From Thermodesulfobacteriota bacterium (lineage in GTDB: Bacteria; Desulfobacterota; Binatia; Bin18): a DNA stretch of 64,000 bases. The position numbers and the translations under genes were made by a program. Where the stretch lies: the NCBI GenBank assembly GCA_964291405.2, contig OZ219926.1:2272001-2336000 (forward strand). Reading direction: 5' to 3'. This document shows positions 5,452-54,623 of the stretch, in pieces; the first letter of the stretch is position 1, and every line of letters begins with the position of its first letter. The notes under the pieces were generated by a model, which did no database searches, was not told where the DNA came from, and saw nothing but the letters and a program-made list of their open reading frames with translations.

Positions 5452-7830
5452 ATGAAAATCGCTGACAACGCCGCAAAGAGGAAACGTGTCCCGCATCTGC
5501 CCGTCGAGGGAGGACATGTTTCCTCTTTGAATCCACGTTCCGCCTTCCACTGGGGCGGCTATGCACCTCGGGTCACGGAGGGTCGTTTGGTTGCCATGGA
5601 TGCCATGCCTGAGGATCCGGACCCCTCTCCTCTCGGGCGCTCCTATGTAGAGGCCGTCAATGACGCGCTCCGCATCCGCCAACCTATGGTGCGGGAAAGC
5701 TGGCTCAGGAACGGACCGGGCAGTGGAACCCGTGGGGGCGAACCTTTTATCGCGCTCGGTTGGGAGCGGGCGCTTGATCTTGTGGCCGCCGAACTCGAAC
5801 GTATCCGGAGCACATTCAGCAACCGGGCGATTTATGCCGGCTCGTACGGCTGGGGCAGTGCCGGCTCCTTCCATTTTCCCCAAGGACAATTGCACCGCTT
5901 CCTCAATCTCTTCGGTGGCTTTGTCCGTTCCATAAACACCTACAGCCACGCCGCGGCCGATGTGGCCATGCCCTATATTGCCGGGAATTTTTTTCGCCTG
6001 CTGGTCGAGCAGGCCTCATGGCAGACGATCGCTCGACATTCCGAACTTGTGGTGGCGTTTGGCGGGATGCCCCTCAAAAACGCGCAGGTAGCCTATGGTG
6101 GAGTAGCCCGGCATCGAACCCGAGAGGGTCTTGATGCCTGTCGACGGGCAGGTGTCGAATTCCTGAATATCGGTCCGGTGAAAAACGACACCGCCGACTT
6201 TCTGCGGGCTGAATGGCTGACCCCGCGCCCCAATACCGATGTAGCGCTGATGCTCGGTCTGGCCCATACCCTGGTCAAAGAGGGGCTGGCCGATTTTGAA
6301 TTTTTGACGCGGTACTGTGTCGGCTTTGAGCGGTTTCGACCGTATCTCATGGGCGAAAGCGATGGACAGTCTAAAGATGCGCACTGGGCGGCCGGTATCA
6401 CCGGCCTGAAGGCTGAGACGATTGCCACGCTGGCTCGGCGGATGGCCGCTAAGCGCACGCTGATTACGATAGCCTGGTCCCTCCAACGGGCGGATCATGG
6501 CGAGCAGAGCTATTGGATGGCAATCACCCTGGCCGCCATGTTGGGACAGATCGGCCTCCCCGGCGGAGGGTTTGGCTATGGCTACTCGTCCGTCGCTACG
6601 GTCGGAAACCCTTCCTCTCGTATTCCCTGGGCTACACTCGACCGCTGTGCCCACCCGGTTGACGATGTCATTCCGGTTGCCAGGATTGCCGACCTCCTGC
6701 TGAATCCGAACACGGAATTCGACTATAACGGACGCCGAGCGACCTATCCTGATATTCGTTTGGTCTACTGGGTGGGTGGTAACGTCTTCCATCACCATCA
6801 GGATTTGAATCGCCTGCTCCGGGCCTGGCAAAAGCCGGAAACCGTTATCGTCCATGAGCCATGGTGGACACCCATGGCGCGCCACGCGGATATCATCTTC
6901 CCGGCCACGACCCCGCTCGAACGCAACGACATGGTCTGCACGCCCCGCGACGGCTTTGTAGTGGCCAATAGACAGGCGATTGAGCCGGTCGGCGGGGCAC
7001 GGAACGATCATGATATTTTTGCGGACCTGGCCGAACGTCTCGGCTTTCGAGAAGGATTTACCGAAGGACGGGACGAAGCCGGTTGGCTGCGCCATCTCTA
7101 TGCGCTCTCCTGTGAACGCGCGCAGGAACGTGGTTTTGCTTTGCCTGACTTTGAGCAATTTTGGACGGACGGTTATTTTGAACTGCCGCTCCCGTCCGAG
7201 CCCCAGCCTTTTCTGTCCGCTTTTCGGACCGATCCCGATGCCCATCCGCTAGACACGCCGTCCGGAAAGATTGAGATCTGGTCGGAGCGTATTGCGTCCT
7301 ATCACTACGACGATTGTCCGCCGCATCCAACCTGGATGGAACCTGTCGAATGGCTGGGGAGTGAGAAAGCCGTACACTACCCCCTCCACTTGACTTCTAA
7401 TCAGCCGGTCGGCCGTCTGCACAGCCAACTCGACCAGGGATCGGTCAGCCGCAGTTCAAAAATCGCCGAACGCGAACCCCTGTGGATCCATCCGGCCGAT
7501 GCCCAGGCGCGAGGGCTGAGCGAGGGCGATATTGTCCGGGTCTTTAATGACCGGGGGCAATGTCTGGCAGGGGTTCGCATTACCGCCAATATCCAAAAGA
7601 GCGTGGTCCAGCTTCCCACAGGAGCGTGGTATGACCCGCTCGAACCGGGGTTGCCGGGATCATTGGAAAAACACGGCAACCCCAATGTGCTCACTCTGGA
7701 CAAAGGCACATCAAAGCTGGGTCAGGGGCCCAGTGCACACACGACTTTGGTTCAAGTCGAACGCTACCAGGGCGACCCGCCGCCCGTGACCGCGTTCGTT
7801 CCCCCGGAAATTCGCCGGGACGACGCTTGA
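5452..7830 (+). CDS. Molybdopterin oxidoreductase, DMSO-reductase family (BisC/TorZ-like S/N-oxide reductase), cytoplasmic
   Basis: HWG, RIRQPMVRESWL, YAGSYGWGSAG, SLQRADHGEQ, TPSGKIEI, RLHSQL, HGNPNVLTLDKGTSKL. No Tat signal. Confidence 0.9.
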   Translation: MKIADNAAKRKRVPHLPVEGGHVSSLNPRSAFHWGGYAPRVTEGRLVAMDAMPEDPDPSPLGRSYVEAVNDALRIRQPMVRESWLRNGPGSGTRGGEPFIALGWERALDLVAAELERIRSTFSNRAIYAGSYGWGSAGSFHFPQGQLHRFLNLFGGFVRSINTYSHAAADVAMPYIAGNFFRLLVEQASWQTIARHSELVVAFGGMPLKNAQVAYGGVARHRTREGLDACRRAGVEFLNIGPVKNDTADFLRAEWLTPRPNTDVALMLGLAHTLVKEGLADFEFLTRYCVGFERFRPYLMGESDGQSKDAHWAAGITGLKAETIATLARRMAAKRTLITIAWSLQRADHGEQSYWMAITLAAMLGQIGLPGGGFGYGYSSVATVGNPSSRIPWATLDRCAHPVDDVIPVARIADLLLNPNTEFDYNGRRATYPDIRLVYWVGGNVFHHHQDLNRLLRAWQKPETVIVHEPWWTPMARHADIIFPATTPLERNDMVCTPRDGFVVANRQAIEPVGGARNDHDIFADLAERLGFREGFTEGRDEAGWLRHLYALSCERAQERGFALPDFEQFWTDGYFELPLPSEPQPFLSAFRTDPDAHPLDTPSGKIEIWSERIASYHYDDCPPHPTWMEPVEWLGSEKAVHYPLHLTSNQPVGRLHSQLDQGSVSRSSKIAEREPLWIHPADAQARGLSEGDIVRVFNDRGQCLAGVRITANIQKSVVQLPTGAWYDPLEPGLPGSLEKHGNPNVLTLDKGTSKLGQGPSAHTTLVQVERYQGDPPPVTAFVPPEIRRDDA
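5475..5528. mobile_element. 54-bp palindromic element, copy 1 (in-frame in the 5' end of the Mo-enzyme ORF)
   Basis: AAAGAGGAAACGTGTCC-20 nt-GGACATGTTTCCTCTTT. Homologous to copies at 32093, 42981, 48911 and 54569. Confidence 0.8.
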
Positions 7831-7837
7831 GAGTAGC

Positions 7838-8182
7838 TTACGAAAATCGCTCCCAGGCGGCTTGCCGACTCACCCCGAGGGCCTTTCCGATTTGCGTCCA
7901 GGTGATCCCTCTCTGACGCAGGGTCTGCACATGCTGCTTGAGGATGTCTGCTACTGAGTGAACGGTGGTAGCCGCCGGGCGTAAGATGCGCAGGAGTTCA
8001 TCATCGGTGAGGGCATCCCAGCCTGGAAAGGCTGGGGTTGGTTCGCCGGCCAAGATCTTATTACACACCACCACACACGCGTCGCAAATATAGACCCCCG
8101 GCCCACCAATGAGTTTTGCGACAGCGTCAGAGTCCTTCCGGCAAAACGAACAGAAAAGCAGATCCTTCTCAGTGGTTCCCAT
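7838..8182 (-). CDS. ClpX C4-type zinc-finger protein with C-terminal HTH
   Basis: CSFCRK...[17 protein letters not shown], plus C-terminal [25 protein letters not shown]. It may be the 3' part of one gene with 8169-8357. Confidence 0.8.
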
Positions 8183-8357
8183 GACAGTCACTGGGATGGG
8201 GCGAGGCGGTCTTGCCGCCCAAGATCTTGTTACACACATCTACGCAGGCGTCACAAATATAGACCCCCGGCCCACCAATGAGCTTGTTCACGGTCTCTGA
8301 ATCTCTTCGGCAGAAGGAGCAGGAAAGGCGAGGTTTCTTTTTTGTACGTGCTCGCAT
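8169..8357 (-). CDS. Small ClpX C4-type zinc-finger protein (possibly the frameshifted N-terminus of the downstream ORF)
   Basis: [40 protein letters not shown] at 8363-8369 on the minus strand. Confidence 0.75.
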
Positions 8358-8379
8358 AGCAGCCTCCTCATAACGAATA

Positions 8380-31424: not shown

Positions 31425-32513
31425 ATGGCCGTTGAGATCCCTGTCCTCACCCAACAATTACAAGCATTCTGCCTCAGCCATTATGGACAAGACGCGAGCG
31501 TCCACCAGGTCGAGGCCATGCCGGGCCATGCCGGGCTGAGTTTTGGCTTCACCGTGACCTATGAAAAAGCCGGCCAGGCTGAAAACGAATCTCTGGTCAT
31601 GCGTCTGCCACCCAAAGGCGTTCGCCAAAGCGGGAATACCGATGTCCTGCGCCAGGCGCCTTTACTGCGTACGCTCAAGAAGAACGGGATGCCTGTCCCT
31701 GAGGTACGTTGGGCCGGAGACGACCTGCGCTGGTTCGAGGTCCCGTACCTGATGGTCGAACGCCTGCCCGGCCGCACCTTCCACGTCTGGGAACCCGACG
31801 CGTCGTTTAGCCGGAACGCCGAGGCCGTCGCGCTGCTCTACCGGCAAGGGGTGCAGGCTTTAATCCAGGTCCACCAGCTCGATTGGAAAACCGAACTGGC
31901 GGGCTGGGAAGCGCCTCGCTCGCTCGAACAGGAAATCCGCTTCTGGGATCCTATTTTAGCCAAGGCCGCAGAGCCGGAATGGATCACCTGGGGCGAAGAG
32001 GTGCGTGCCCTCCTGCTGACCCACCAACCCGCAGACCCTCCGATCGGCCTCTTTCATGGCGACTATCAAGGGACCAATCTACTGTTTGACAAAAAGAAGG
32101 AACCTGTCCGTCCTCAACCGGCAGATGCGGGACAGGTTTCCTCTTTACAGCCCGCGGGCGAGCAACTGGTGGCCCTCCTGGATTGGGAGATTTCCGGTAT
32201 CAGCGGACATCTCCTCGATCTCGGCTGGCTGCTGGTCTTTATTGACCCGGAAAGCTGGGATACCGAACGCCGTCCAATCTCAACCATCCCGCCGATTGAC
32301 GCGCTCGTGGCCTTGTATGAAGACGGCATGCAACGCAAGGTCCCCGATATCAATTGGTATCGCGCCTTGGCTGGCTATCGCTTTGGCGCAATCAGTTGTT
32401 TTAATGTGATGCTGCACCGTCGCGGCAAGCGCCACGATCCCGAGTGGGACCTGATCGCCCCATCGGTCAAGACGCTTTTTGGCCGGGCCAAGGAATTGCT
32501 GCTCAGAGGTTAA
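31425..32513 (+). CDS. APH/ACAD10-11-like phosphotransferase family protein
   Basis: VMRLPP, FHGDYQGTN, LLDWE, DLGWL. AAGGAG RBS. Carries an in-frame palindromic insertion. Confidence 0.88.
   Translation: MAVEIPVLTQQLQAFCLSHYGQDASVHQVEAMPGHAGLSFGFTVTYEKAGQAENESLVMRLPPKGVRQSGNTDVLRQAPLLRTLKKNGMPVPEVRWAGDDLRWFEVPYLMVERLPGRTFHVWEPDASFSRNAEAVALLYRQGVQALIQVHQLDWKTELAGWEAPRSLEQEIRFWDPILAKAAEPEWITWGEEVRALLLTHQPADPPIGLFHGDYQGTNLLFDKKKEPVRPQPADAGQVSSLQPAGEQLVALLDWEISGISGHLLDLGWLLVFIDPESWDTERRPISTIPPIDALVALYEDGMQRKVPDINWYRALAGYRFGAISCFNVMLHRRGKRHDPEWDLIAPSVKTLFGRAKELLLRG
32093..32146. mobile_element. 54-bp palindromic element, copy 2 (in-frame in the phosphotransferase)
   Basis: AAAGAAGGAACCTGTCC-20 nt-GGACAGGTTTCCTCTTT. 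The spacer is 16/20 identical to the reverse complement of the copy 1 spacer. Confidence 0.78.
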
Positions 32514-32531
32514 AATTCTTGAGTACAACGG

Positions 32532-34853
32532 CTAAAGGCGTGCAGCAGGGCGGTGGTGCGGGGCCGGCTGAGAAAATTTCCACTGAAAAAATTTCCACTG
32601 AAAAAATTCCCAAGACAGATTGATCCCCAACAGATTATGCAATAAAGACCCCTGATGAGGGAGCGACCGGGCTATGCGGAATCCGATGAGGGTGCTCCGA
32701 AAGCCGGCGGTGTTCCGTTCGAGGGAGACCGAAAGGGGATCCCCTGGACTGATGGTCCAGATGGTCCAGGGATAGCCGTGCCAGGTACATTCCGTATAGT
32801 CGCTCCATATTTCGTAGCAGTCCTGCAACCATTCCAAGACATTCCCGTTGAAATCGTGGAGACCAACGGTGTTCGGTGAATATTTCCCTACCGGCACCGG
32901 CGGCCCCCGATGATACCCCTCCCCATTGTTGCGGTAAACGTTCTCGTTATAGCTCACTTGTAGCAGACCTGTGGTCCTCATTATGGTGTGAATTGAGATG
33001 GGGTTGGCGTCCTTACCCGTGCTAGAGATATAGTTATGCTCCGCTTCACTAAGAAGCCGGTACATCTGGCCCGTCTTCTCCGATATCCACTGCAGATAAC
33101 CCTGGACATCAAACCGATTGACGTTGATCACCGGCTGCTGCCCTCGGCCAAACCCCCGATCGTTCGGCCGGTAACCGCGGCAGCCCCCGTCGGCCACACA
33201 GCGGTCCCAGTCAGCAAACGTGATTTCGTAGATCCCTACAGCAAGCCCTGTCGAAACCACTATTAACTCCGGGCAGGTCGGGCAGTCCCGAAAGCGGGTC
33301 CCCACCGGCCGGTCCACCAGCTCTGGCTTAGTTGGCTCCACGAGCAGATGCTGGCCCAACCGGTAGGCCCTCTCTCCATACGCGACGCTAGACGATACGA
33401 CTTTCTGGACAAGAGGCCCAAGCAGATTATAGCCCAGCCAGTAGCTCGCCCCTACACCCGCGACGATAAGCGCGATCACGGCGCTAGACGATACGACTTT
33501 CTGGACAAGAGGCCAACGAAAGGAGCGGGGTTGGACAGCTCCCTCTACTGCCTCGTCGATCGAGGCGGCTCCTTTTGGCTTAGAGCGTTGCTGCCGTATC
33601 CAGGAGTCGAAACTTTTCTTGCCTTTTCTAGTTCTAGAGGTCTCGGCAGCTCCCTCAGGCTCAAACTCCTCACTCGGCTTGGCGGGCTCATTCCGCTTGG
33701 CGGACGAGATGTCTACCGCCGGCTCGGAGTCCGGCTGGACGGGCTCCGTCGCCCCGGCCTCATCCACCGAGGCCGCTCCCTCAGGCTCATCCACCAAGGC
33801 AGCTCCCTCAGGCTCAAACTCCTCACTCGGCTTGGCGGACGAGATGTCTCTCGCCGGCTCGGAGTCCGGCTGGGCGGGCTCCGTCGCCCCGGCCTCGTCC
33901 GCCGAGATGGCTCCCTCGGGCTCAAGGCCTAGAAGGCTTTCCCACTCTTCTATGCTCCACGGCCTCTCCTCGATAGGGATCCTCATTCCCTTCTCGATCC
34001 CTTCTGACAGTTGCCTACTGTAGTGGAATCTTCTGCCGACGCTCGTGGCCGGATCTATATCCGACTTCCCGGCGTTCAATCTGCTCGCTCGCAGATCCGC
34101 ATTCACGACGGTGCCCCCGATACACTCGTATGCCACCGTTGCCACGATGAAGATATCACTCCAGGGTCCATAAGGATCGGCACTTTTGCCATGTTGCTCC
34201 AGCGGCGCATAGTCCAACGGAGCGGGGGTTAGCTTGAACTTCCTGGCCTCCCGGGCTATCCCAAAGTCCACGATGACCCAGGTGCCATCCTTCCGCCTGA
34301 CCAGATTCTCCGGAGTAAGATCCCGATGATAGACACCCTCCCTATGGATTCTCTTTAGCCCTCCCAGGACGTCTTGCAACAGACGCTTCAATGCGGCCTC
34401 TTCTAATCTCTTTTCCTGATTCAGGGTAGCCCTTAGCGACCCGCCGTCGATGTACTCCAGGGCGAGATAAACCGTGTTGTTGTCTTCAATGCGGCCATAC
34501 ATCGTGTTGATATTCGAATGGTGAAACTTCATCAGGGTGTCAGCCTCAACATGAAAATCCTCCAGCCACTGGTCGTAAAAACCCTCCAAATGGGGCTTTG
34601 CCTCTACTGTCTTGCCATCCCCTCCCCGCTGGGCAATGGGGAGCGGCATATACTCCTTGAGGGCGACGTTGCAATTCTCCCAATGGTCATACGTCCTGTA
34701 GGTAAGAGCGTAACGACCCCGTCCCAGGACATCCAATATCTCGTAACGATCCCGCACCATCGCCCCTTCCGGCAAAGCTTTTCGGTCATCCTCATTACCC
34801 AGCAACATTGCTTTCAGCAAAGCTTCTTGGTCGTCCTTCGGATATTCTGCCAT
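32532..34853 (-). CDS. Ser/Thr protein kinase - acidic repeat linker - TM - FGE-sulfatase (SUMF1-like) domain protein
   Basis: Kinase motifs LGRG, VALKEY, HRDLTPENL, DFGIA, YAPLEQ. TM IALIVAGVGASYWLG. FGE motifs RDCPTCPEL, PVINV, YRLLSEAE, GLHDFNGNVLEW, GFRIAR. GAGGAGG RBS. Confidence 0.85.
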   Translation of the reverse strand: MAEYPKDDQEALLKAMLLGNEDDRKALPEGAMVRDRYEILDVLGRGRYALTYRTYDHWENCNVALKEYMPLPIAQRGGDGKTVEAKPHLEGFYDQWLEDFHVEADTLMKFHHSNINTMYGRIEDNNTVYLALEYIDGGSLRATLNQEKRLEEAALKRLLQDVLGGLKRIHREGVYHRDLTPENLVRRKDGTWVIVDFGIAREARKFKLTPAPLDYAPLEQHGKSADPYGPWSDIFIVATVAYECIGGTVVNADLRASRLNAGKSDIDPATSVGRRFHYSRQLSEGIEKGMRIPIEERPWSIEEWESLLGLEPEGAISADEAGATEPAQPDSEPARDISSAKPSEEFEPEGAALVDEPEGAASVDEAGATEPVQPDSEPAVDISSAKRNEPAKPSEEFEPEGAAETSRTRKGKKSFDSWIRQQRSKPKGAASIDEAVEGAVQPRSFRWPLVQKVVSSSAVIALIVAGVGASYWLGYNLLGPLVQKVVSSSVAYGERAYRLGQHLLVEPTKPELVDRPVGTRFRDCPTCPELIVVSTGLAVGIYEITFADWDRCVADGGCRGYRPNDRGFGRGQQPVINVNRFDVQGYLQWISEKTGQMYRLLSEAEHNYISSTGKDANPISIHTIMRTTGLLQVSYNENVYRNNGEGYHRGPPVPVGKYSPNTVGLHDFNGNVLEWLQDCYEIWSDYTECTWHGYPWTIWTISPGDPLSVSLERNTAGFRSTLIGFRIARSLPHQGSLLHNLLGINLSWEFFQWKFFQWKFSQPAPHHRPAARL
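32568..32612. repeat. 3 x 15-nt tandem repeat in the kinase-FGE 3' tail
   Basis: CTGAGAAAATTTCCA / CTGAAAAAATTTCCA / CTGAAAAAATTCCCA, encoding WEFFQ-WKFFQ-WKFSQ. Confidence 0.85.
33386..33514. repeat. Exact 33-bp direct repeats 96 nt apart, flanking the TM-coding segment
   Basis: CGCTAGACGATACGACTTTCTGGACAAGAGGCC at 33386-33418 and 33482-33514 (PLVQKVVSSS twice). Confidence 0.9.
33640..33930. repeat. Imperfect ~150-nt tandem duplication in the acidic linker
   Basis: DEAGATEPxQPDSEPAxDISSAK and PSEEFEPEGAA each occur twice, with near-identical DNA. Confidence 0.85.
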
Positions 34854-35000
34854 TCCGGCCCTCCTCGGTTAGACGATTTCTCCAGATGACTTTCCCCAAT
34901 ATTGCTCAAGCTTCTCCTGCTTTCAATCGTGCCAAATCCTTCCCCTGGCCGACGGATGCACCTACCTCACCGACTGCGCCGGCCGGAACGGCACCTTCAT

Positions 35001-36046
35001 CTACCCAGCCTCGGCCATAATCCGCTGGGCGCGCTGCACGAGTTGGGGCACCTTCCAGGCAAACTCGGCGGCTTTCGGATTGGCCGCGGTGCCTTCGAGA
35101 TAGTGTCGATACAGGCCCTCCAGAATGATGGCGTACTTCCAGACCGCCAAGCAGCGATAAAAGGGAAAGTGTTCCATGGTCCGGCCGGTACGTTGCGCAT
35201 AGCGCGCGGCCATCTCTTCGCGGGATAAAAAACCCGGCAACTGAGTCATGGCATTGCTGTCAATCAGGTCCGGGGTGTCTCGTTCATCACCGGTAGGCCC
35301 CCAGAAGCTGAGCAGCCAGCCGAGGTCGGTTAACGGGTCGCCAAAGTTGCCATTTCCCAGTCGAATATGGCGACCAGGCGGGCCGGTCGAGCCCGAAACA
35401 TCACGTTATCGACTTTATAATCCCCATGCACAAGCGTGGCTTCACTTGTCGGCGGCAGTCGCTGTCGCAACCAGTCGCCGACTTCCTTGAGTCCGGGCAA
35501 TGGCCGGGTGTGTGGCACGGTCAGCGCATACTGTTTGGTCCAGCGTTTGAGCTGGCGTTCAAGATAGCCCTGTGGCTTACCAATGCCTTCGAGGTCCGTA
35601 CCTTGCCATTGCACGGCATGGAGCTCAGCGAGGGCGTCGATTAATTCTTCTCCGAGTCGTTGGCGTTCTTCCTGGGCGGCAAAAACTTCCGGGAGCGTTT
35701 CACGGATCACGATGCCGTCCACACGCTCCATCAGATAAAAAGGAACACCGAGAACGTCCCGATCTTCACACGCAATCACTGGCTGTGGAGTCCGCACGTC
35801 AAAAGCGGACAGAGCAGACAGCACCCGGTATTCGCGCAGCATGTCGTGGGCGGTCGGCAGGAGGTCCCCGCTCGGCGGACGCCGCAAAACCCAGTGTTTG
35901 TCTCCCCAGGAGACAAAAAACGTTTCGTTTGAATAGCCGGCTTCGTGTCGTTCAATCCTGATGTCGCCCTCGGTCAGGGAGAGCCGGTCACGTAGAAAAC
36001 GAATAAGATTTGGCAGGTTAATGAGCGGGCTGTCTTCCTGAACCAT
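35001..36046 (-). pseudogene. APH/ACAD10-like phosphotransferase interrupted by a 1-nt frameshift near 35341 (pseudogene or assembly error)
   Basis: ...HGDYKVDN...FDWEMATL ends at ATR*. Adding one G (TTG GGC GAC) restores GDPLTDLGWLL and continues in the frame ending at 35001. Confidence 0.85.
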
Positions 36047-40022: not shown

Positions 40023-41618
40023 ATGCCACGCCGCCGTGCCAAGAAAAAATCCCGGTTCAGCCTCCCGCCACCGGAGCCCCTGCCGGATAATGTGTATTGG
40101 GTTGAGAGCGACTCGTATGACCGGGCGGTCTATGAGCAACTCCGCGTCGCCTCCCCCTCTTTACAGCGCCTTGAAGAGAGCGGGGCGCCTCTTCTACCGC
40201 ATTTTCCTGCGCTCTTGCGCGACCTTTTTTGCGCGCTCTTCAAATATAACGTCGTCTTTTTTAAAGCGGACGACGTGCTCCCCAGCGCGGCGGTGAACCG
40301 GGAGTTACTCACCGCGCTGCATAGCGGCGAGTTGGCGAACCTGCTGCGAGAGGCCACCATCCTGGATGAAGGGCAGGCCGGGCTGGCCACCGTGCTCTTG
40401 GGCGAAGGCGCCCTCCGCGTGCTGAAATCCGAAAAGCCGCTGACCCGGCGCGACTTACTCGATGTCTGGAACGTAGAAAAGCAGGAAGCGCTGGCACAGC
40501 AGAACATCGACGAAGCCCAGAATGCAAAAGAACTCGCTGAACAAGCGGATACTGCTGAGGATATATCACAAGAAGTCACAGAGATGCTCGAACAGACGGC
40601 CGAGCGTATGGCCAGTCAGGCACGGGCGGAAGACACCCGGCTGCAACGCCTGGCCAAACAGCTCAACCAAGACCTGTCCCGTGTACAGCAGGAAACCCAC
40701 AATCGTTTTCTCAAAGAAGCGATTGCGGTTGCCCAAAATCTCGATGACGCGACCCAGGAGGCCGAGTCGTGGGGGCTGGTCGTGGGTGGTGGCCATCAAT
40801 CTTCCCCCGGCCGCCAGATTGAGCTGGGCAAGCGGCTGGCTGGGAACGACAAGCTGAAAAAGCTCGCCACCATGGTCGGGCGGATGAAGCACCAGGCGCT
40901 CGCCCTGCGTCGGAAAGACTTTGAACGCACCAATGACGAGGTCTTCGAGGTGGGAGTCGGGGCGGAACTCAGCCGCTTGCTCCCCCACGAGTTGCTGAGC
41001 TTGCAACACCCCCTGTTACGCCAGGACTTTATCCGGCGCTTTGTGGATAGCGAGCTTTTACAGTACGACCTGCGCGGGGTGGAGGCGCAGGGCAAAGGCC
41101 CGCTTATCGTCTGCCTCGACGGCAGCTCATCCATGCAGGGAGACAAAGAAGTCTGGGCCAAGGCGCTCACGTTGACGCTGCTTGAGATTGCCCGGCGCGA
41201 ACGGCGCCGGTTTCGAGCGATTTGTTTCTCGTCCGCGGACGCACCCCTGTACAGCGTCGATCTCAATACGCGGGTGCGCTATGAAGCGGACATGGACAAG
41301 GTTCTGGAGCTAGCCGAATACTTCCCCGGCGGTGGGACCGATTTTGAAAAACCCCTTGACGCGGCCCTGGAGTGCATCCAGGAATCTCGTTTCCAGCGGA
41401 GTGATATCGTGTTTATTACCGACGGCGAATGCCGGGTCCATGCAGACTGGGCTGAACGCTTTACCACGGAGAAGAACGCGCTCGGCTTCTCGCTCTTCTC
41501 GATTCTGATCGACATTGGCACCAGCTCGCTTGGTTCGCTCAAACCTTTCAGCGATAAAATTACGACGGTCTCGCAGCTGACTAGTAAAGAGGCCAGAGAC
41601 GTGTTTGTCAAATTGTAG
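40023..41618 (+). CDS. ViaA-like vWA-domain protein
   Basis: LSRLLPHEL, KGPLIVCLDGSSSM, GGGTDF, VFITDG. Follows the RavA-like ATPase. Confidence 0.88.
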   Translation: MPRRRAKKKSRFSLPPPEPLPDNVYWVESDSYDRAVYEQLRVASPSLQRLEESGAPLLPHFPALLRDLFCALFKYNVVFFKADDVLPSAAVNRELLTALHSGELANLLREATILDEGQAGLATVLLGEGALRVLKSEKPLTRRDLLDVWNVEKQEALAQQNIDEAQNAKELAEQADTAEDISQEVTEMLEQTAERMASQARAEDTRLQRLAKQLNQDLSRVQQETHNRFLKEAIAVAQNLDDATQEAESWGLVVGGGHQSSPGRQIELGKRLAGNDKLKKLATMVGRMKHQALALRRKDFERTNDEVFEVGVGAELSRLLPHELLSLQHPLLRQDFIRRFVDSELLQYDLRGVEAQGKGPLIVCLDGSSSMQGDKEVWAKALTLTLLEIARRERRRFRAICFSSADAPLYSVDLNTRVRYEADMDKVLELAEYFPGGGTDFEKPLDAALECIQESRFQRSDIVFITDGECRVHADWAERFTTEKNALGFSLFSILIDIGTSSLGSLKPFSDKITTVSQLTSKEARDVFVKL

Positions 41619-42843: not shown

Positions 42844-43725
42844 ATGTCCCATAGTCCAGATGGCCTGACTCAGTCCAAAGAAAAGAGCTCTCTCAAAGTG
42901 AAACCGATACCTGTGATTGCCGCTCTCCTCATCGTGGCCAGTCTGGTTTCCATTCGAACAGATTCCCTCCGTACCGGAGAAAAGAGTAAGCGTGTCCAGT
43001 ATCCCATGTCTAGTGGAGGACACGTTTACTCTTCTGAGACCGCTTCTCCTGTGAGCGCTTGGCAACAAGTCGCTACCCTCTTTCCGCATACACCTGGCAG
43101 CCGCTGGGTCTATCGGCTGTCCGGCGCGTGGTATGAGACCGAGGCTGAGCTCAGCGTGGAGGTGAAAGGACGGCAGCATATCCCGTACCTCCAGCGTGAC
43201 GCCGTGATACTGGACGAAGCCCACCCCGGCGTCACGCCGACCGCACCCAAGGATATCCTGCCGATCTTATACTACTTCCATGAGGGCTATCTGGTCCGGA
43301 ACAGCAACCATGCCTACGGTGATAATGAGCACACGAACTTAGTCTCAACCGGGACCATAGGCGAATCGTTTGCACCCGTCTTGCCGCCCGACCTCACCAG
43401 CCAGAGCGTAAACCCAAGTGAAGAGTGGCAAGAGGTCTGGGTAGGCGCATGGGCCGAAGAGGCTCAGCTCTCGACGCTCTACCGCTTTGGACCGGAGCAG
43501 GAGCCGGTGGTGGTCACGGCCGGGACGTACACCGACTGTCTGCGGGTGGAGACTCAACTTGTCCGGACGAGCGGACGCGGTTTTCACTATACGGAATGGT
43601 ACACTCCTGGCGTCGGCATGGTGAAAAGTACCGCCACCGATCTGGTGAGCGGAAAAATTGTTGAACAAAAGGAACTGGTTACGTTTCAACTTGTGCAGGG
43701 TAAAACCGAGGAAAAGAACAGCTAG
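42844..43725 (+). CDS. Hypothetical membrane-anchored/exported beta-rich protein
   Basis: N-terminal hydrophobic segment, LFP..GSRWVY, VTAGTYTDCLRV, WYTPGVGMVK. Confidence 0.7.
   Translation: MSHSPDGLTQSKEKSSLKVKPIPVIAALLIVASLVSIRTDSLRTGEKSKRVQYPMSSGGHVYSSETASPVSAWQQVATLFPHTPGSRWVYRLSGAWYETEAELSVEVKGRQHIPYLQRDAVILDEAHPGVTPTAPKDILPILYYFHEGYLVRNSNHAYGDNEHTNLVSTGTIGESFAPVLPPDLTSQSVNPSEEWQEVWVGAWAEEAQLSTLYRFGPEQEPVVVTAGTYTDCLRVETQLVRTSGRGFHYTEWYTPGVGMVKSTATDLVSGKIVEQKELVTFQLVQGKTEEKNS
42981..43034. mobile_element. 54-bp palindromic element, copy 3 (in-frame in the hypothetical ORF)
   Basis: AAAGAGTAAGCGTGTCC-20 nt-GGACACGTTTACTCTTC. The spacer is 17/20 identical to the reverse complement of the copy 4 spacer. 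Confidence 0.85.
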
Positions 43726-47794: not shown

Positions 47795-48829
47795 TCAGGT
47801 CATCGCCGGCAACTCCCAATGACGCTGCTGTACGGCCCGGACGTTGGGGAGCAGACCCTGGCGTTCATACGCTGGGAGCGGATGGTCGAGCCGGGCACCG
47901 TCCATTTCGTCCAGAACGTGGATCACCGAAGTTTCCAGTCCTTCCAGATCGTAGCCGCCTTCGAGAATGGCGGCGCAACGGCCCTGGGCCTGATCCCGCG
48001 CCACGCGCAGGAGAATCCGTGCCAGGGCAGTAAAGCCCTCTGCCGTGACGGTCAGACCACCGAGTGGGTCACGGGCGTGGGCGTCAAAGCCGGCGGAGAT
48101 CAACACAAACTCGGGCTGAAACTGCCGACAAATAGGATCGATCACCTCTTCAAATAGGGGCACAATGGCGGCATCGCCCCAGCCGGCGCTGAGCGGCAGG
48201 TTGACGGTATAGCCCTCGCCGCTGCCTTGGCCGGCTTCTTCGGCGGCTCCTGTGCCGGGATAGTATGGATATTGATGGGTCGAGACGTACAGCACGCCAG
48301 GGTCATCGTAGAAACTGTGCTGGGTGCCGTTGCCATGGTGCAGGTCCCAATCCATCACCAGAATCCGGCTCAACCCGAACCGTTCCCGCAGATATTGCGC
48401 CCCAACCGCAACGCTGTTGAAGAGGCAAAAGCCCATGGCCCGGTTACGTTCGGCATGATGGCCGGGCGGTCGTACCAAGGCAAAACCGTTGTCCACCTCG
48501 CCCTCCATGACCGCATCCAGAATGGTCAGCAGACCGCCGGTGGCGAGCAGGGCTGTCTCATACGACTGCGCGGACACCCGCGTATCCGCGTCAAAGGCCG
48601 CAGCTTCGAGACCGGCAGAGGCAGCGACTTGGCCAATCAGGCTGGTATCGTGGACCAAAGCGATCTCCTCATGCGTCGCCCGTCTGGGCTCAAACCGTTT
48701 CAACCCGTCACGTTCGTAGGACGCGAAGCGGCTGAGTAGGGTACCGATCCGATCCGCCCGTTCCGGATGACCCGGACCTGGGTTGTGATCCTGATAGCGT
48801 GCGTCCAGCACGATTCCTGTCTGTAACAT
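47795..48829 (-). CDS. Histone deacetylase family protein
   Basis: HPER, RPPGHHA, DWDLHHGNGTQ, SAGFDAH, LEGGY. Confidence 0.94.
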   Translation of the reverse strand: MLQTGIVLDARYQDHNPGPGHPERADRIGTLLSRFASYERDGLKRFEPRRATHEEIALVHDTSLIGQVAASAGLEAAAFDADTRVSAQSYETALLATGGLLTILDAVMEGEVDNGFALVRPPGHHAERNRAMGFCLFNSVAVGAQYLRERFGLSRILVMDWDLHHGNGTQHSFYDDPGVLYVSTHQYPYYPGTGAAEEAGQGSGEGYTVNLPLSAGWGDAAIVPLFEEVIDPICRQFQPEFVLISAGFDAHARDPLGGLTVTAEGFTALARILLRVARDQAQGRCAAILEGGYDLEGLETSVIHVLDEMDGARLDHPLPAYERQGLLPNVRAVQQRHWELPAMT

Positions 48830-48910
48830 TGATCGCTCCTTACCGGGGCGGGGGTGTCCCCTCCTACCGTGTTCTGGCCATAACTTGCGCCAGTTTTTCG
48901 ATTATACTAC

Positions 48911-48964
48911 GAAGAGTAAACGTGTCCTCCACTAGACATACGATGCTGGACACGTTTACTCTTT
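48911..48964. mobile_element. 54-bp palindromic element, copy 4 (intergenic, upstream of tatA/B)
   Basis: Perfect 16-bp arms AAGAGTAAACGTGTCC / GGACACGTTTACTCTT (48912-48927, 48948-48963) with a 20-nt spacer. Confidence 0.85.
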
Positions 48965-48983: not shown

Positions 48984-49286
48984 ATGTTCGGAATCGGGAT
49001 GCCGGAATTGGTGGTGATTTTGGTCGTGGCGCTGATCGTCCTCGGGCCAAAGCGCCTGCCCGAAGCGGCCCGCGGTTTGGGTAAAGCCTTTGCCGAATTG
49101 CGCCGGGCAACAAGCGGGATTACCGAAGAGCTCGATAATGCCCAGATCATGCTGGACGAAGAAGTTCGTGCCGCCGAACGCAACGCACGGACCAGCTCTT
49201 CAGCCATGCCGTCCTCTGCCTCTTCCGCCTCACCCCAGTCTTTGGAAACACCAGAAAAGAAAGAGAGCACCGGAGGGGACAACTAG
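48984..49286 (+). CDS. Twin-arginine translocase TatA/TatB subunit
   Basis: MFGIGMPELVVILVVALIVLGPKRLP. Directly upstream of tatC. Confidence 0.92.
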   Translation: MFGIGMPELVVILVVALIVLGPKRLPEAARGLGKAFAELRRATSGITEELDNAQIMLDEEVRAAERNARTSSSAMPSSASSASPQSLETPEKKESTGGDN

Positions 49287-51648: not shown

Positions 51649-51696
51649 AGGCGATCCGGTATGGAGACACGGAGGTGGTGAGACCGATGATCCACC

Positions 51697-51972
51697 TTAC
51701 GCTGAGTCCGTAGTCCCCGGGTGCATTTTCTCCATTAACCAGTCGTCATACGCGGTCGGACGGGGGACTTGGTGCCAGTCCATATGCTGACGCAGGGATT
51801 CGAGCGCGGCCCAAGCGTCATCAAGAAAGTCCGGCACGATCAGGAGCACAATAATGGCCTGGGTATTGTCGATCGTGCGGACAATGCCGAATTCTTCGTA
51901 GGACTCGATGACACATTTGATGAGCGCAATATCGGCCCGCTCAACCCGCAAATAAATATCGACCAGCTCCAT
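51697..51972 (-). CDS. DUF4911-like small protein
   Basis: IYLRVERADIALIKCVIESYEEFGIVRTID pattern. Confidence 0.7.
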   Translation of the reverse strand: MELVDIYLRVERADIALIKCVIESYEEFGIVRTIDNTQAIIVLLIVPDFLDDAWAALESLRQHMDWHQVPRPTAYDDWLMEKMHPGTTDSA

Positions 51973-52086
51973 GTCCGCACCAGTACTGCGTGCACGGGCT
52001 GGAGTCAAGCTTGACGTGACACCGGCGGCCTACTAGAGTCTGACTCTGCTGTGTCGGATCTATCCGGCCGGAAATAAGGAGGGAGT

Positions 52087-53292
52087 ATGCCGGGTGCCTT
52101 ATCAGGTTTTCGGATCATTGAATGTGGCGAGATGGTCTCCGCCGCCTACGCGAGTAAGCTCATGGCCGACATGGGCGCAGAAGTCATTAAGATTGAGTCG
52201 CCGCACGGGGGAGACACAGCCCGTCAGCGCGGTCCATTTCCAGGCGGAGAGCCACACACGGAAAAGAGCGGGCTGTATCTTTTCCTGAACACCAATAAAC
52301 GTGGGATCACGCTCGACCTGGAACAGACCCAGGGCCAGGAGGTCTTTCAGCGTCTTGTCAAAGACGCGGACCTGCTTATCCATAATGTCCATCCCAAGCA
52401 TATGCCGACCGTTGGTTTAGACTACGGTCGCCTGGCGGCCATCAATCCCGGCCTGGTCATGACCTCAATCACGCCTTTTGGTATCAGGGGACCGCATACG
52501 GAGTATGAGGCGTCTGACCTCACCCTGTGGAATGCGGGCGGGCTGTGCTTTCTGAACGGTGGGGGGCCGGGCACCGACCATCTCCCGCCGCTCAAGGCAT
52601 TTGGCCAGCAGTCCGGGTTTACGGCTGGGGTGCACGCCGCGGTTGCGTCGCTCGGCGCACTGTTTGCCGGACTGCGCGGCGGGTTGGGCCAGCACGTCGA
52701 GTTCTCTGTCCAGGAGTGCCTGATGGGCATCTCGGAGTTCGGCACTATGATGGCCTCCTACGCCGGTGTAGCGGTAACGCGGCTGGGGCATAAACCAATC
52801 CAGCCGCTGGATCTGTTGGAATGCAAAGACGGCTGGATCTTCATCTGCTGTGTGGAGGAGCATCACTGGCACTCGTTTGTGGATCTGATGGACAACCCGG
52901 AGTGGGCCGCCGAGCCTCTCTTCGAGGATCGACTGAAGCGGGGCGAGAGTTGGGACGCGCTCAAACTGCTCATCCAGGACTGGGTCAAGGATTTCACGGT
53001 CCAGGACTTGTATCTCAAGGCGCAGGCGCGCCGGATTCCCTTTGCTCCGGTCTCAACCATGGGCTATTTGTTGAACTCCGACCACCTCAACGCCCGCGGC
53101 TTTTTTGTCCAACTCGATCATCCCGAAGCGGGCAGCCTGACCTATCCGGGCGCACCCCATATCTGCTCGGAAACACCGTGGGAACTGCGTCGTCCGGCTC
53201 CGTGTTTGGGACAGCATAACACCGAGGTCTATACCGAACTCGGCATGACCGCCCAGGACCTGGCTACGTTGCAGCGAGCCGGTGCCGTCTAG
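52087..53292 (+). CDS. CaiB/BaiF family III CoA-transferase, first subunit of a tandem pair
   Basis: MADMGAEVIKIE, NTNKRGITLDL, APCLGQHN. AAGGAGG RBS. Confidence 0.92.
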   Translation: MPGALSGFRIIECGEMVSAAYASKLMADMGAEVIKIESPHGGDTARQRGPFPGGEPHTEKSGLYLFLNTNKRGITLDLEQTQGQEVFQRLVKDADLLIHNVHPKHMPTVGLDYGRLAAINPGLVMTSITPFGIRGPHTEYEASDLTLWNAGGLCFLNGGGPGTDHLPPLKAFGQQSGFTAGVHAAVASLGALFAGLRGGLGQHVEFSVQECLMGISEFGTMMASYAGVAVTRLGHKPIQPLDLLECKDGWIFICCVEEHHWHSFVDLMDNPEWAAEPLFEDRLKRGESWDALKLLIQDWVKDFTVQDLYLKAQARRIPFAPVSTMGYLLNSDHLNARGFFVQLDHPEAGSLTYPGAPHICSETPWELRRPAPCLGQHNTEVYTELGMTAQDLATLQRAGAV

Positions 53293-53315
53293 GAAGAAGG
53301 CAAAAGGAGAAGATC

Positions 53316-54530
53316 ATGAGCCGACCACCGTTGGATGGAATCCGTGTTGCTGACTTTTGCTGGGCCTGGGCCGGCCCCTATGGTGCCCTGCAACTGGCCC
53401 ACCTGGGCGCGGACGTCATTCGGATCGAAAGCGCAAAGCGCTTATGTCCGTCGCGCCTTATTCCGCCCTGGCCGGACAACGAATCGGGCGTGAACCGGGC
53501 GGGCTATTTTAACCAGTACAATCAGGGGAAGCGTTCCCTCACCCTGGACCTGAAAGCCCCGGAAGCCATTGATATTGCGAAAACGCTAGTCTCAAAAAGC
53601 GATATCGTCATGAATAATTTTGCCTCTGGGGTGATGGAAAAACTCGGGGTGGGCTACGACGTCCTGCGCCGCATCAAGCCCGACATCATCATGGTCTCTC
53701 TCCCCGGCTATGGAACGAGCGGACCGGAAAAAGACTTTGTGTCCTACGGCCCACCGCAGGTCGCCCAGAGCGGCCTGTCGGCCTTGACCGGCTATGTCGG
53801 CGGGCCGCCCATGATGGCCGGTTTTTCCTACGGCGACCCCAACGGCGGTGTCCATGCCACGTTTGCCGTCATGGCTGCCTTGCTCCACCGTGAAAAAACC
53901 GGCCAGGGCCAGTACATCGATCTCTCCCAATGGGAGGCGGCGATCATGCTATTGCCCGAAGCCCTCATGGACTACAGCATGAACGGCACCCAGCCCGAAC
54001 GGATGGGCAATCGCGACCCTCATATGGCACCCCACGGCGTCTTTCGCTCCAAAGGTGACGACCGATGGGTAAGTCTGTCGGTTCGAGACGAGGCAGAATG
54101 GCAACGCTTGTGTGAGGTCATGGGCCAACCCGAGCTCAGCTCGGACGCGCGTTTCACCACCCTTGCCGCACGGAAGGAAAATGAGGCGGCCCTGGAAGAA
54201 ATCGTCACGGCCTGGACTCAGGAGCGCACGGCGGACGAGGCCACCCAGGCGCTGCAGAACGCCGGCATTCCCGCCTATCCGGCGCTTGACGCGATTGACA
54301 TGGTCAACAACCCGCACGTTGGCGCGCGGGATTATTTTGTGGAACTGGAACACCCGGAGGTGGGCACCCGCCGGCATATGGGCATACCCTGGACCATGTC
54401 CCGCACACCGTGTGAGATACGGCGTCCGGCTCCTTGCCTGGGCCAGGATACGGATACAGTCCTGACCGATATAGTCGGCCTGAGTCAGGACGAGATCGCT
54501 GCGCTTCGAGAAAAGGATATCCTGACCTAG
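53316..54530 (+). CDS. CaiB/BaiF family III CoA-transferase, second subunit of a tandem pair
   Basis: DFCWAWAGP, NQGKRS, SYGDPNGG (catalytic Asp). Confidence 0.92.
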   Translation: MSRPPLDGIRVADFCWAWAGPYGALQLAHLGADVIRIESAKRLCPSRLIPPWPDNESGVNRAGYFNQYNQGKRSLTLDLKAPEAIDIAKTLVSKSDIVMNNFASGVMEKLGVGYDVLRRIKPDIIMVSLPGYGTSGPEKDFVSYGPPQVAQSGLSALTGYVGGPPMMAGFSYGDPNGGVHATFAVMAALLHREKTGQGQYIDLSQWEAAIMLLPEALMDYSMNGTQPERMGNRDPHMAPHGVFRSKGDDRWVSLSVRDEAEWQRLCEVMGQPELSSDARFTTLAARKENEAALEEIVTAWTQERTADEATQALQNAGIPAYPALDAIDMVNNPHVGARDYFVELEHPEVGTRRHMGIPWTMSRTPCEIRRPAPCLGQDTDTVLTDIVGLSQDEIAALREKDILT

Positions 54531-54568
54531 ATAGGGAGGAGGGTGGACCGGCTGCGCAAAGCGTCATC

Positions 54569-54623
54569 AAAGAGTAAACGTGTCCAGCAGTTTGATATCA
54601 ATTGGAGGATACGTTTACTCTTT
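54569..54623. mobile_element. 55-bp palindromic element, copy 5 (intergenic, between convergent genes)
   Basis: AAAGAGTAAACGTGTCC-21 nt-GGATACGTTTACTCTTT. Confidence 0.85.

What the first reader, a model, noticed from the sequence alone, without database searches (positions are those of the whole stretch)
5475..54623. Family of 54-55 bp palindromic elements that colonises both intergenic DNA and coding sequences in-frame
Seen: five copies at 5475-5528, 32093-32146, 42981-43034, 48911-48964 and 54569-54623. Each has about 17-bp arms AAAGAG(T/G)AAAC(G/C)TGTCC and a 20-21 nt oriented spacer. Spacers fall into two subfamilies: copy 1 vs copy 2 is 16/20 and copy 3 vs copy 4 is 17/20, each pair in opposite orientation. 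Three copies lie within ORFs without breaking the frame (54 nt = 18 codons), and in all three a codon starts at element position 2. The resulting peptides are KRKRVPHLPVEGGHVSSL, KKEPVRPQPADAGQVSSL and KSKRVQYPMSSGGHVYSS. No target-site duplication or transposase is visible. Known: Rickettsia palindromic elements add peptides to proteins this way, and REP/REPINs are mobilised by RAYT HUH transposases without TSDs. Inference: a non-autonomous, peptide-donating mobile element. If the density here (5 in 64 kb) holds genome-wide there would be hundreds of copies.
Basis: partly seen in the sequence, partly recalled or inferred. Interest (0 to 1): 0.8.

Follow-up and report, generated by a model that had tools for sequence, protein, structure and literature searches.

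The report
Mobile 54-bp hairpin repeat inside genes
A tiny 54-base hairpin-forming DNA repeat has spread about 150 times through this uncultured Binatia bacterium, landing without a scar between genes, at gene ends and, in frame, inside working housekeeping genes, much as the palindromic elements of Rickettsia do.

Summary
All five copies are at the stated places. The genome carries 154 copies.

Related genomes of the same genus have exact empty sites, with 54 bases more or less and no target duplication. This is seen at window copies 1-4, and in the AlaRS, MnmG and enoyl-CoA hydratase genes.

All three ORF copies in the window are true in-frame insertions. At least 14 copies in 13 genes lie inside coding sequence, among them AlaRS, MnmG, MnmE, Mfd and UvrA.

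So the reading "non-autonomous, peptide-donating mobile element" is supported. The RAYT idea is not: Y1, IS110 and TnpB genes do not go with the element. Codon phase 2 is not a rule.

New details:
- The loop flips in place and the arms change together.
- 17 genes end in the element's own TAA.
- Copies crowd around dnaA.
- Each flank shows a weak GC preference.
- Presence at a site needs 5-6 gains or losses even on local trees.

Translation of the inserts is inferred, not shown.

This scan had already found the same Binatia repeat on other genomes. I found no printed account. It is a new member of a known kind, closest in behaviour to Rickettsia palindromic elements (RPEs).

The parts
5475..5528 (.). 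Copy 1, 54 bp, in frame after codon 8 of the molybdopterin oxidoreductase gene. It adds KRKRVPHLPVEGGHVSSL.
   Evidence: The ATG at 5452 and the ribosome-binding site before it are kept in the genus. 14 genomes are empty and read MKIADNAA|NPRS. 5 are filled (G000, G041, G011, G022, G015). G018 keeps a 30-nt in-frame remnant.
5452..7830 (+). Host gene of copy 1: molybdopterin oxidoreductase of the DMSO-reductase type, 792 aa.
   Evidence: Pfam PF00384, PF01568 and PF18364.
32093..32146 (.). Copy 2, 54 bp, in frame in a phosphotransferase (APH family) gene. It sits between the HGDxxxxN loop and the DWE motif and adds KKEPVRPQPADAGQVSSL.
   Evidence: It is filled in 12 genomes and empty in 12 (junction gacaa|acagcc). 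The spacer is inverted in G041, G006 and G043, while all copies share the same rare arm variant. Proteins are 362 aa when filled and 344 aa when empty.
31425..32513 (+). Host gene of copy 2: APH-family phosphotransferase, 362 aa.
   Evidence: PF01636.
42981..43034 (.). Copy 3, 54 bp, in frame behind the N-terminal hydrophobic stretch of a DUF3108-like protein. It adds KSKRVQYPMSSGGHVYSS.
   Evidence: It is filled in G000, G004, G041, G010, G007 and G023. G022 and G013 show an exact empty junction ggaga|tgaga. G002 and G006 are contiguous across the site.
42844..43725 (+). Host gene of copy 3, 293 aa, with a weak DUF3108-like match.
   Evidence: PF21347, E 3.5e-4, below the Pfam cut-off.
48911..48964 (.). 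Copy 4, intergenic, between divergent genes: a histone-deacetylase-family gene (47795-48829, minus strand) and tatA (48984-49286, plus strand).
   Evidence: G019 and G021 show exact empty junctions. G006, G022 and G017 are contiguous to within 1 nt across the site.
54569..54623 (.). Copy 5, 55 bp (21-nt spacer), between convergent genes: a CoA-transferase (53316-54530, plus strand) and an amidohydrolase (54640-55776, minus strand).
   Evidence: None of the 6 related loci aligned there has a copy. In G004 the two sides are contiguous. The exact empty junction is blurred by divergence of the spacer DNA.
41378..41379 (.). A site that is empty here but holds a 54-letter insert in related strains. 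It lies inside the VWA-domain gene 40023-41618.
   Evidence: the DNA run X3 has '54 letters between' these positions. A contig from the RNA library X20 (record 20) has 54 extra letters between them.

Best explanation
This is a genus-restricted, non-autonomous palindromic insertion element. It has 17-bp inverted arms (AAAGAG[T/G]AAACGTGTCC) around an oriented loop of about 20 nt, 54 bp in all. Shown: it enters DNA as an exact unit with no target duplication. Copies survive where they do little harm: between genes, at the very ends of genes, and in frame inside permissive parts of proteins. At gene ends its own TAA (positions 7-9) often becomes the stop codon. Inside proteins it should add 18 residues. 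Also shown: once inserted, the two arms change together and the loop can invert in place. Inferred: this follows from the hairpin itself, through template switching between the arms during replication. Shown: at a given site, presence and absence are scattered among close relatives. Inferred: copies are also lost without a scar, or alleles are exchanged by recombination. The enzyme that moves it is unknown. It is not a resident RAYT/Y1, IS110 or TnpB-linked transposase. Each flank shows a weak preference (G at +4, C at +5, almost never T at +6, read outward from the element). This suggests a protein that reads both sides of the target. Translation of the inserts is inferred from open frames and frame-preserving lengths, not observed.
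For: Family: 140 paired-arm copies and 154 loci by nhmmer. The hairpins are strong, with RNA fold energies of -24 to -32.6 kcal/mol and z-scores of -2.5 to -6.8.

Distribution: the arm occurs in 17 of 24 other genomes of the genus and in 0 of 16 genomes of other genera of the class. Arm counts run from 0 to about 270, that is up to about 140 copies. A scan of one genome per species found 113 perfect-arm stretches. All 80 listed are Candidatus Binatia MAGs.

Exact empty sites with no duplication:
- AlaRS: 6 filled and 20 empty among 26 readable rows; junction GGCGA|54 nt|CAAGCGC.
- Window copies 1-4.
- MnmG: 7 filled, at least 11 empty.
- Enoyl-CoA hydratase: GAC|54 nt|TGA.
- A second, independent insertion in the AlaRS of G021.

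Inside genes: Pfam matches lie on both sides of the insert in AlaRS, MnmG, MnmE, Mfd, a UvrA-like protein, a MiaB-like protein (two copies), an AddB-like protein, a FAD-binding protein and a HEAT-repeat protein.

Frame constraint: 11 of 13 verified coding copies are 54 nt, 2 measure 53 by the model's ends, and none is 55-56 nt. Among all 154 copies, 43 are 55-56 nt. Remnants are also in frame (30 nt in G018).

Stop donation: 17 genes end in the element's TAA, and in 33 copies a stop codon overlaps or abuts the element. One case is checked against empty sites: KEDD* becomes KEDDKE*.

Change in place: there are 79 compensated double changes in the arms, against a mean of 21.9 and a maximum of 35 in 1000 shuffles. 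At the orthologous copy-2 site, both arms changed together in G022, G013 and G004, and the spacer is reverse-complemented in 3 of 12 filled genomes.

Scattered presence: sites AlaRS, 1 and 2 need 6, 6 and 6 changes of state on a three-locus tree, and 5, 5 and 6 on trees of their own flanks.

Flanks: G at +4 in 136 of 308, C at +5 in 165 of 308, T at +6 in 7 of 308. The two sides do not covary.
Against: No transposase was found, so 'mobile element' rests on presence/absence polymorphism and copy number, not on a mechanism.

The scattered presence could come from recombination among lineages rather than excision. The trees are single-locus or three-locus quick trees of recombining metagenome genomes.

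39 of the 79 compensated changes are one T:A to G:C variant that may be inherited from a subfamily master copy.

Gene calls outside the window are my own crude codon-usage ORF calls. The class counts (63 intergenic, 46 partial, 45 inside) are therefore rough, and 25 'inside' copies lie within 150 nt of the longest possible start.

Orthologous copies are as conserved as their flanks or more so: arms 0.91-0.99 against flanks 0.89-0.95. A purely neutral passenger would not obviously show that, so some constraint or homogenisation is at work.

No protein or ribosome data show the peptides.
Confidence: 0.8

Rival explanations
1. REP/REPIN-type element moved in trans by a RAYT (Y1 HUH) transposase.
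For: It is a palindrome with an oriented spacer, has no target duplication and is lost without a scar. These features fit single-strand HUH transposition.
Against: PF01797 (Y1_Tnp) is found in only 10 of 28 genomes of the genus. It is missing from 11 element-rich genomes (G018, G041, G042, G043, G022, G010, G006, G015, G011, G002, G004). It is present in G008, G024 and G020, which have no copies. The only match in this genome is a 110-aa fragment covering profile positions 40-121, next to ordinary genes. Copies lie inside genes. The flank preference is two-sided, not the one-sided short target of IS200/IS605 (that feature is recalled). No GTAG head is in the consensus (the REP feature is recalled).
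Confidence: 0.08
2. A host-recruited functional hairpin, such as a terminator, an mRNA stabiliser or a protein-binding site, rather than selfish DNA.
For: 83 of 154 copies lie from 12 nt inside to 150 nt past a stop codon. The loop has conserved ends. Orthologous copies are at least as conserved as their flanks. The stem's GC-rich core is followed by a T-rich foot on both strands (sequence).
Against: Copies lie next to and inside unrelated genes, including 14 inside coding sequence, where a terminator would be harmful. Presence at a site varies among close relatives. The terminator scan flags none of the copies, since the loop is 20 nt. Rfam has no match. Genes closely flanked by two copies are a mixed set: RecR, urease gamma, ThiS, Jag, L19 and a response regulator.
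Confidence: 0.1
3. The coding copies are removed or bypassed at the RNA or translation level, so no peptide is added.
For: Nothing direct. A very stable hairpin within an mRNA could in principle be processed.
Against: Coding copies are stop-free in the host frame. None of the 13 verified coding copies has the 55-56 nt lengths that 43 of all 154 copies have. Decay remnants keep the frame. That is what translation predicts, not precise excision. A contig from an RNA library carries a 54-letter insert inside the VWA gene of a relative. This is weak evidence, because DNA can be present in such libraries.
Confidence: 0.03

Closest known systems
Rickettsia palindromic elements (RPEs)
   Same: Both are palindromic repeats that sit in frame inside unrelated housekeeping genes as well as between genes. 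Both add a peptide without destroying the gene, and neither has a known transposase. I read the RPE passage of the review PMC10969869. The original Ogata papers are recalled, not read.
   Different: RPEs are given as about 150 bp in ten families, in obligate intracellular alpha-proteobacteria. This element is 54 bp (18 residues), a single hairpin, in a genus of uncultured Binatia found in sponge metagenomes. I did not test sequence similarity to RPEs. Only about 9% of copies here are verified as coding, against nearly half of the RPEs of three families in R. conorii according to the review.
REP / REPIN elements with RAYT transposases
   Same: Both are short hairpin-forming repeats in hundreds of copies with no target duplication. 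The inverted arms with a spacer resemble a REPIN doublet.
   Different: No RAYT is co-distributed with the element. Copies occur inside genes. The arms are not themselves palindromes. There is no GTAG head (recalled feature).
MITEs (Correia/NEMIS, ERIC, BOX and the like)
   Same: Both have terminal inverted repeats, no coding capacity and many copies. Occasional in-frame intragenic copies are described for ERIC and others in PMC10969869.
   Different: MITEs by definition leave target-site duplications and derive from an IS with the same ends. Here there is no duplication. No parent IS was found in this genome.
Template-switch mutation at inverted repeats (arm homogenisation and spacer inversion)
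   Same: The changes in place seen here are the signatures described for polymerase template switching: both arms changing together, and the loop reverse-complemented at an orthologous site. Sources: PMC8794818, passages read; PMC8604942, abstract start in the search listing only.
   Different: That process explains how a copy evolves after insertion, not how copies spread to new sites.

Membership tests
Rickettsia palindromic elements (RPE) | Palindromic repeat found in frame inside protein-coding genes of unrelated function | tested here: met
   At least 14 copies in 13 genes, with empty orthologues for AlaRS, MnmG and window copies 1-3.
Rickettsia palindromic elements (RPE) | Membership of one of the described RPE sequence families (about 150 bp; Rickettsia) | tested here: not met
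   The length is 54 bp against about 150 bp. The host is Binatia. Sequence comparison with RPE consensus sequences was not run, because none was at hand.
REP/REPIN-RAYT | A RAYT (Y1_Tnp) gene in genomes that carry the repeat, typically flanked by it | tested here: not met
   PF01797 is in 10 of 28 genus genomes and does not follow the element. The single fragment in this genome lies among ordinary genes.
REP/REPIN-RAYT | Extragenic location | tested here: not met
   Coding copies were verified.
REP/REPIN-RAYT | Conserved GTAG-type head at the 5' end of each REP (feature recalled from memory) | tested here: not met
   The arm consensus AAAGAG[T/G]AAACGTGTCC has no such head. GTAG and CTAG are enriched only in some flanks: CTAG 19 against 4.1 expected, GTAGC 17 against 3.7.
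MITE | Terminal inverted repeats and no coding capacity | tested here: met
   17-bp arms; 2159 of 2380 arm cells are Watson-Crick paired.
MITE | Target-site duplication | tested here: not met
MITE | A parent insertion sequence with the same ends | tested here: not met
   In this genome every arm with 1 mismatch or fewer belongs to a short copy or to one truncated half-copy next to an enoyl-CoA hydratase gene. Relatives were not scanned for long arm-bounded units.
IS200/IS605-derived palindromic elements | No duplication and seamless loss | tested here: inconclusive
   No duplication is shown. Seamless loss is inferred from scattered presence, but recombination is not excluded.
IS200/IS605-derived palindromic elements | Y1 transposase and/or TnpB in the genome | tested here: not met
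   PF01797 is in 10 of 28 genomes and PF07282 in 6 of 28. This genome has no PF07282 match and only a Y1 fragment.

The most novel reading that the evidence does not exclude
The element is a minimal scarless hairpin transposon moved by an enzyme of a kind not yet linked to transposition. No Y1, IS110 or TnpB gene goes with it. The enzyme would read a two-sided target (GC three bases out on each flank, never T at +6) and could both insert and remove the 54 bases exactly. Loops of essential proteins such as AlaRS, MnmG and MnmE would then switch reversibly between states with and without 18 residues. Activity would be concentrated around the replication origin.
Probability: 0.2. Interest if true: 0.7.

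Novelty: new member of a known kind. Interest (0 to 1): 0.5.

Why it matters
In-frame palindromic insertions into housekeeping proteins are best known from Rickettsia. Here the same thing happens in a distant lineage with much larger genomes (about 5 Mb), seemingly associated with sponges. The unit is only 54 bp, and dozens of closely related genomes record the gains, losses, loop flips and decay of single copies site by site.

That makes three open questions testable with data that already exist:
- How such elements move without a recognisable transposase.
- Whether loss is truly scarless.
- How proteins tolerate sudden 18-residue loops.

It also matters for annotation. Copies create false start extensions, donate stop codons to 17 genes, and can be mistaken for regulatory sites.

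Tried and rejected
1. RAYT/Y1, IS110 and TnpB as drivers. Family searches over 28 genus genomes gave 10, 1 and 6 genomes with a match, none following the element.

2. A parent element bounded by the arms. The only unpaired good arm, at C3:1018206, is a truncated copy beside an enoyl-CoA hydratase gene.

3. Genes closely flanked by two copies as candidate transposases. The 13 ORFs tested are housekeeping genes or have no Pfam match. The four without a match were not pursued.

4. Flank pairing as an extension of the stem. The GC preference on the two sides does not covary: 22 and 45 Watson-Crick cases of 154 at positions 4 and 5.

5. Terminator reading. The consensus scan flags no copy.

6. Structure of the APH protein with its insert. 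AlphaFold2 on a 26-row genus alignment gave mean pLDDT 49.3 and pTM 0.43, too poor to say where the insert sits. No fold search was run.

7. RNA evidence. Only contigs of two metatranscriptome runs with small shares were available. They cover copy 2 only as an empty allele of a relative, and they do not show transcription or the strand.

8. Orientation against replication. Model-strand counts are 59 plus and 95 minus, with an excess of minus between 2.5 and 3.75 Mb. Because loops flip in place, I draw nothing from it.

9. GC skew gives a broad minimum at 1.9-2.6 Mb. Gene-strand bias does not give a clean two-replichore picture, so 'origin' rests on dnaA and the mnmE-mnmG neighbourhood only.

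Full report
**What is there.** Each has two 17-bp inverted arms (consensus AAAGAG[T/G]AAACGTGTCC) around a 20-nt spacer, 21 nt in copy 5. The arm pattern matches 11 times in the window against 0.36 expected by shuffling. Ten of those matches are the paired arms. Each copy folds into a strong hairpin, with RNA fold energies of -24 to -32.6 kcal/mol and z-scores of -2.5 to -6.8. The spacer likenesses (16/20 and 17/20, each in opposite orientation) and the three peptides are as stated.

**Genome-wide picture.** The window is C3:2272001-2336000 of a 4.95-Mb, three-contig genome.
- A pattern scan finds 140 paired-arm copies with spacers of 17-23 nt; 78 have 20 nt and 33 have 21 nt.
- A profile built from them finds 154 loci, 151 of them near full length. 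Of these, 87 are 54 nt long and 35 are 55 nt.
- Copies are not spread evenly. 78 of the 154 lie between 2.0 and 3.0 Mb of C3, with 16 and 18 per 100 kb at 2.3-2.5 Mb.
- dnaA is at 2.46 Mb, and mnmE-mnmG are at 2.49 Mb.
- In the single-contig relative G018, dnaA is at 1.75 Mb. 25 of its 60 listed zero-mismatch arm matches lie at 1.23-2.13 Mb. Many sites are orthologous, so this is not independent support.

The window's high density therefore overstates the genome total.

**Who has it.** The arm is found in 17 of 24 other genomes of the genus and in 0 of 16 genomes from 16 other genera of the class. Arm counts run from 0 to about 270, that is up to about 140 copies. A scan of one genome per prokaryote species for the perfect-armed 54-mer gave 113 stretches. 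All 80 listed are Candidatus Binatia MAGs. Runs that hold the window are mostly labelled sponge metagenomes. On a three-locus tree, the genus members without copies are the deeper branches.

**It is inserted DNA, and the insertion is exact.** At every site I examined, relatives differ by the element and nothing else.
- AlaRS: 6 genomes are filled and 20 are empty among 26 readable rows. At the nucleotide level the junction reads GGCGA|54 nt|CAAGCGC. G021 carries a second, independent insertion elsewhere in AlaRS.
- Copy 1: 5 filled, 14 empty, and one 30-nt in-frame remnant in G018.
- Copy 2: 12 filled, 12 empty.
- Copy 3: 6 filled, with exact empty junctions in G022 and G013 and contiguous flanks in G002 and G006. 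G042 and G007 carry another copy 17 nt downstream.
- Copy 4: empty in G019 and G021. G006, G022 and G017 are contiguous to within 1 nt across the site.
- Copy 5: no filled orthologue among six aligned loci.
- MnmG: 7 filled, at least 11 empty, one remnant.

No target duplication appears at any of these sites, nor statistically over all 154 copies.

**The coding copies are real.**
- Copy 1. I first suspected that the true start lay downstream of the element. But the ATG at 5452 and the ribosome-binding site before it are kept across the genus, and empty alleles read MKIADNAA|NPRSAFHWG. The element therefore sits after codon 8.
- Copy 2 lies between the HGDxxxxN loop and the DWE motif of an APH-family phosphotransferase. 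Empty orthologues read FDK|QPAGE and are 344 aa against 362 aa.
- Copy 3 follows an N-terminal hydrophobic stretch, and relatives lack exactly the 18 residues.
- Elsewhere in the genome, Pfam matches lie on both sides of the insert in AlaRS, MnmG, MnmE, Mfd, a UvrA-like protein, a MiaB-like protein (two copies), an AddB-like protein, a FAD-binding protein and a HEAT-repeat protein.

That makes at least 14 copies in 13 genes. A further 25 copies lie within 150 nt of the longest possible start of a crude ORF. Most of those are probably upstream of the true start, for example the two copies before the Mur-ligase domain.

All three codon phases occur. Phase 1 is possible only for the G variant of the arm, because the T variant reads AAA GAG TAA. 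Of the 13 verified coding copies, 11 are 54 nt, 2 measure 53 by the model's ends, and none is 55-56 nt. Among all 154 copies, 43 are 55-56 nt. This fits a need to keep the frame, and so translation. Translation itself is not shown.

**Gene ends.** 83 of 154 copies lie from 12 nt inside to 150 nt past a stop codon. In 17 the host ORF ends in the element's own TAA, and in 33 a stop overlaps or abuts the element. I checked one case against empty sites. An enoyl-CoA hydratase gene ends ...KEDD-TGA in four genomes without the element. In 12 others, and here, the element sits exactly between GAC and TGA, so the protein ends ...KEDDKE-TAA (in G041 it ends ...EE). Only 2 of the 17 have the old stop directly behind the element. 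In several others an in-frame stop follows two codons later. These are insertions into the last few codons.

**What happens after insertion.** Across 140 copies the arms show 79 compensated double changes, against a mean of 21.9 and a maximum of 35 in 1000 shuffles. 39 of the 79 are one T:A to G:C variant that may be inherited. The orthologous copies are more telling.
- At the copy-2 site all filled genomes share a rare arm variant (AAACCTGTCC), so they descend from one insertion.
- Yet G022, G013 and G004 each changed both arms together.
- In G041, G006 and G043 the 20-nt spacer is the reverse complement of that in the other nine.

Arm homogenisation and spacer inversion are the described signatures of polymerase template switching between inverted repeats (PMC8794818, passages read; PMC8604942, abstract start in the listing only). 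Orthologous copies are as conserved as their flanks or more so: arms 0.91-0.99 against flanks 0.89-0.95.

**Gain and loss.** On a tree from three loci (12,309 columns, element copies masked), the presence or absence of a copy needs at least this many changes:

| Site | Three-locus tree | Tree of the site's own flanks |
|---|---|---|
| AlaRS | 6 | 5 |
| Copy 1 | 6 | 5 |
| Copy 2 | 6 | 6 |
| Copy 3 | 2 | not done |
| Copy 4 | 2 | not done |

. Well-supported sister pairs differ in state. G000 is filled and G004 empty at AlaRS and at copy 1. G022 differs from G006, and G011 from G005, at copy 1. Filled alleles at a site share site-specific variants, so repeated independent insertion is unlikely. 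Either copies are lost exactly, several times per site, or alleles move between lineages by recombination over short tracts. I cannot separate these two with the data at hand.

**How it moves.** This is unknown.
- Y1_Tnp (RAYT and IS200 type) is found in 10 of 28 genus genomes. It is missing from 11 element-rich genomes and present in three that have no copies.
- IS110 is in 1 of 28 genomes and TnpB in 6 of 28.
- This genome has only a 110-aa Y1 fragment among ordinary genes.
- It has no longer unit bounded by the arms.
- The genes boxed in by two copies are housekeeping genes.
- The flanks carry a weak but clear two-sided signal. Read outward from the element, G is at +4 in 136 of 308 flanks, C at +5 in 165, and T at +6 in only 7. 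The two sides do not covary. This looks like half-site recognition of the target rather than an extended stem.

**Comparison with known kinds.** In behaviour it is closest to the Rickettsia palindromic elements (RPE passage in PMC10969869). It is a third of their size and lives in an unrelated host. It fails the defining tests for REP/RAYT (no RAYT, not extragenic) and for MITEs (no duplication, no parent IS). It shares with IS200/IS605-type elements only the lack of a scar. Rfam has no family in the window. Full-text searches for Binatia with 'repeat' and for Binatota with 'palindromic' returned nothing relevant.

This scan had already met the same repeat on other Binatia genomes, including the in-frame copies, clean losses and the loop flip. 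Those are AI notes. I reached the same points independently here, before reading them.

**Limits.** Gene calls outside the window are my own crude ones. The trees are quick trees of metagenome-assembled genomes. The structure model was too poor to use. The RNA data are contigs from two small metatranscriptomes and show only that an RNA library holds a 54-letter insert in a relative's VWA gene.

Noticed in passing
G000 C3:2491722-2491775 (MnmE gene; locus L317:3754-3807) and orthologues: At the MnmE site, filled genomes have 54 nt between the flanks. G002 and G041 have 0 nt. Six genomes have 6 nt (GAATTT, GGATTT, GAATGT, GAATGC, GCAGGT), which resemble the first and last three bases of the element. 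This is either a footprint of imprecise loss or a target that already matched the element's ends.
   Followed up: partly
G000 C3:38174, 1001355, 1018206, 3498312, 4264387: Five copies share longer flanks: CCCCTCTTGGGAGGG on one side, and GTGCCG(C)GTAGCGGCGGGGTGGGTT on the other. The element there is part of, or inserted into, a second and larger repeat.
   Followed up: no
window 32503-35008: Contigs of three runs (X1, X3, X20) skip about 2.5 kb here, with 27-31 other letters between. Related strains therefore lack the Ser/Thr-kinase/FGE-sulfatase gene 32532-34853.
   Followed up: no
window 43035-43055 region in relatives (loci L075, L076): G007 and G042 carry a different copy of the element 17 nt downstream of the copy-3 site, and G007 has both. 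This short stretch of the gene has therefore been hit twice.
   Followed up: partly
window 48901-48928, minus strand: There is a promoter-like pair of hexamers (AGGACA, 16 nt, TATAAT; 10 of 12). Its -35 box lies inside copy 4, and it faces the histone-deacetylase-family gene. It may be chance.
   Followed up: no
G000 C3:2091886-2091939 and 2091987-2092040: Two identical copies lie 101 nt apart, upstream of the Mur-ligase domain of a murC-like gene. This looks like a local tandem duplication.
   Followed up: no
G000 C3:2444467 and 2346268 (right flanks): The sequence directly beside these two copies looks like the start of tRNA genes (GTAGCTCAG..., GGTAGCTCAATCGG...). I saw this by eye and did not run ARAGORN.
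   Followed up: no
G006 (relative), whole genome: There are 22 matches to the TnpB zinc-ribbon family in G006, against 0-2 in the other 27 genus genomes. This is a separate, lineage-specific burst of IS200/IS605/IS607-type elements.
   Followed up: no
G000 C3:982103-982333 (locus L157:2071-2403): There is a 110-aa ORF that matches only positions 40-121 of Y1_Tnp. The same truncated match is kept in G001, G005 and G021. It may be a relic or a domesticated fragment.
   Followed up: partly
G010 MnmG (L322) and G018 copy-1 site (L133): These are decay forms of coding copies. One is a 14-nt right-arm remnant with loss of 11 nt of flank. The other is a 30-nt remnant with a 24-nt internal deletion. 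The G018 remnant is a whole number of codons, and both host frames remain open.
   Followed up: partly
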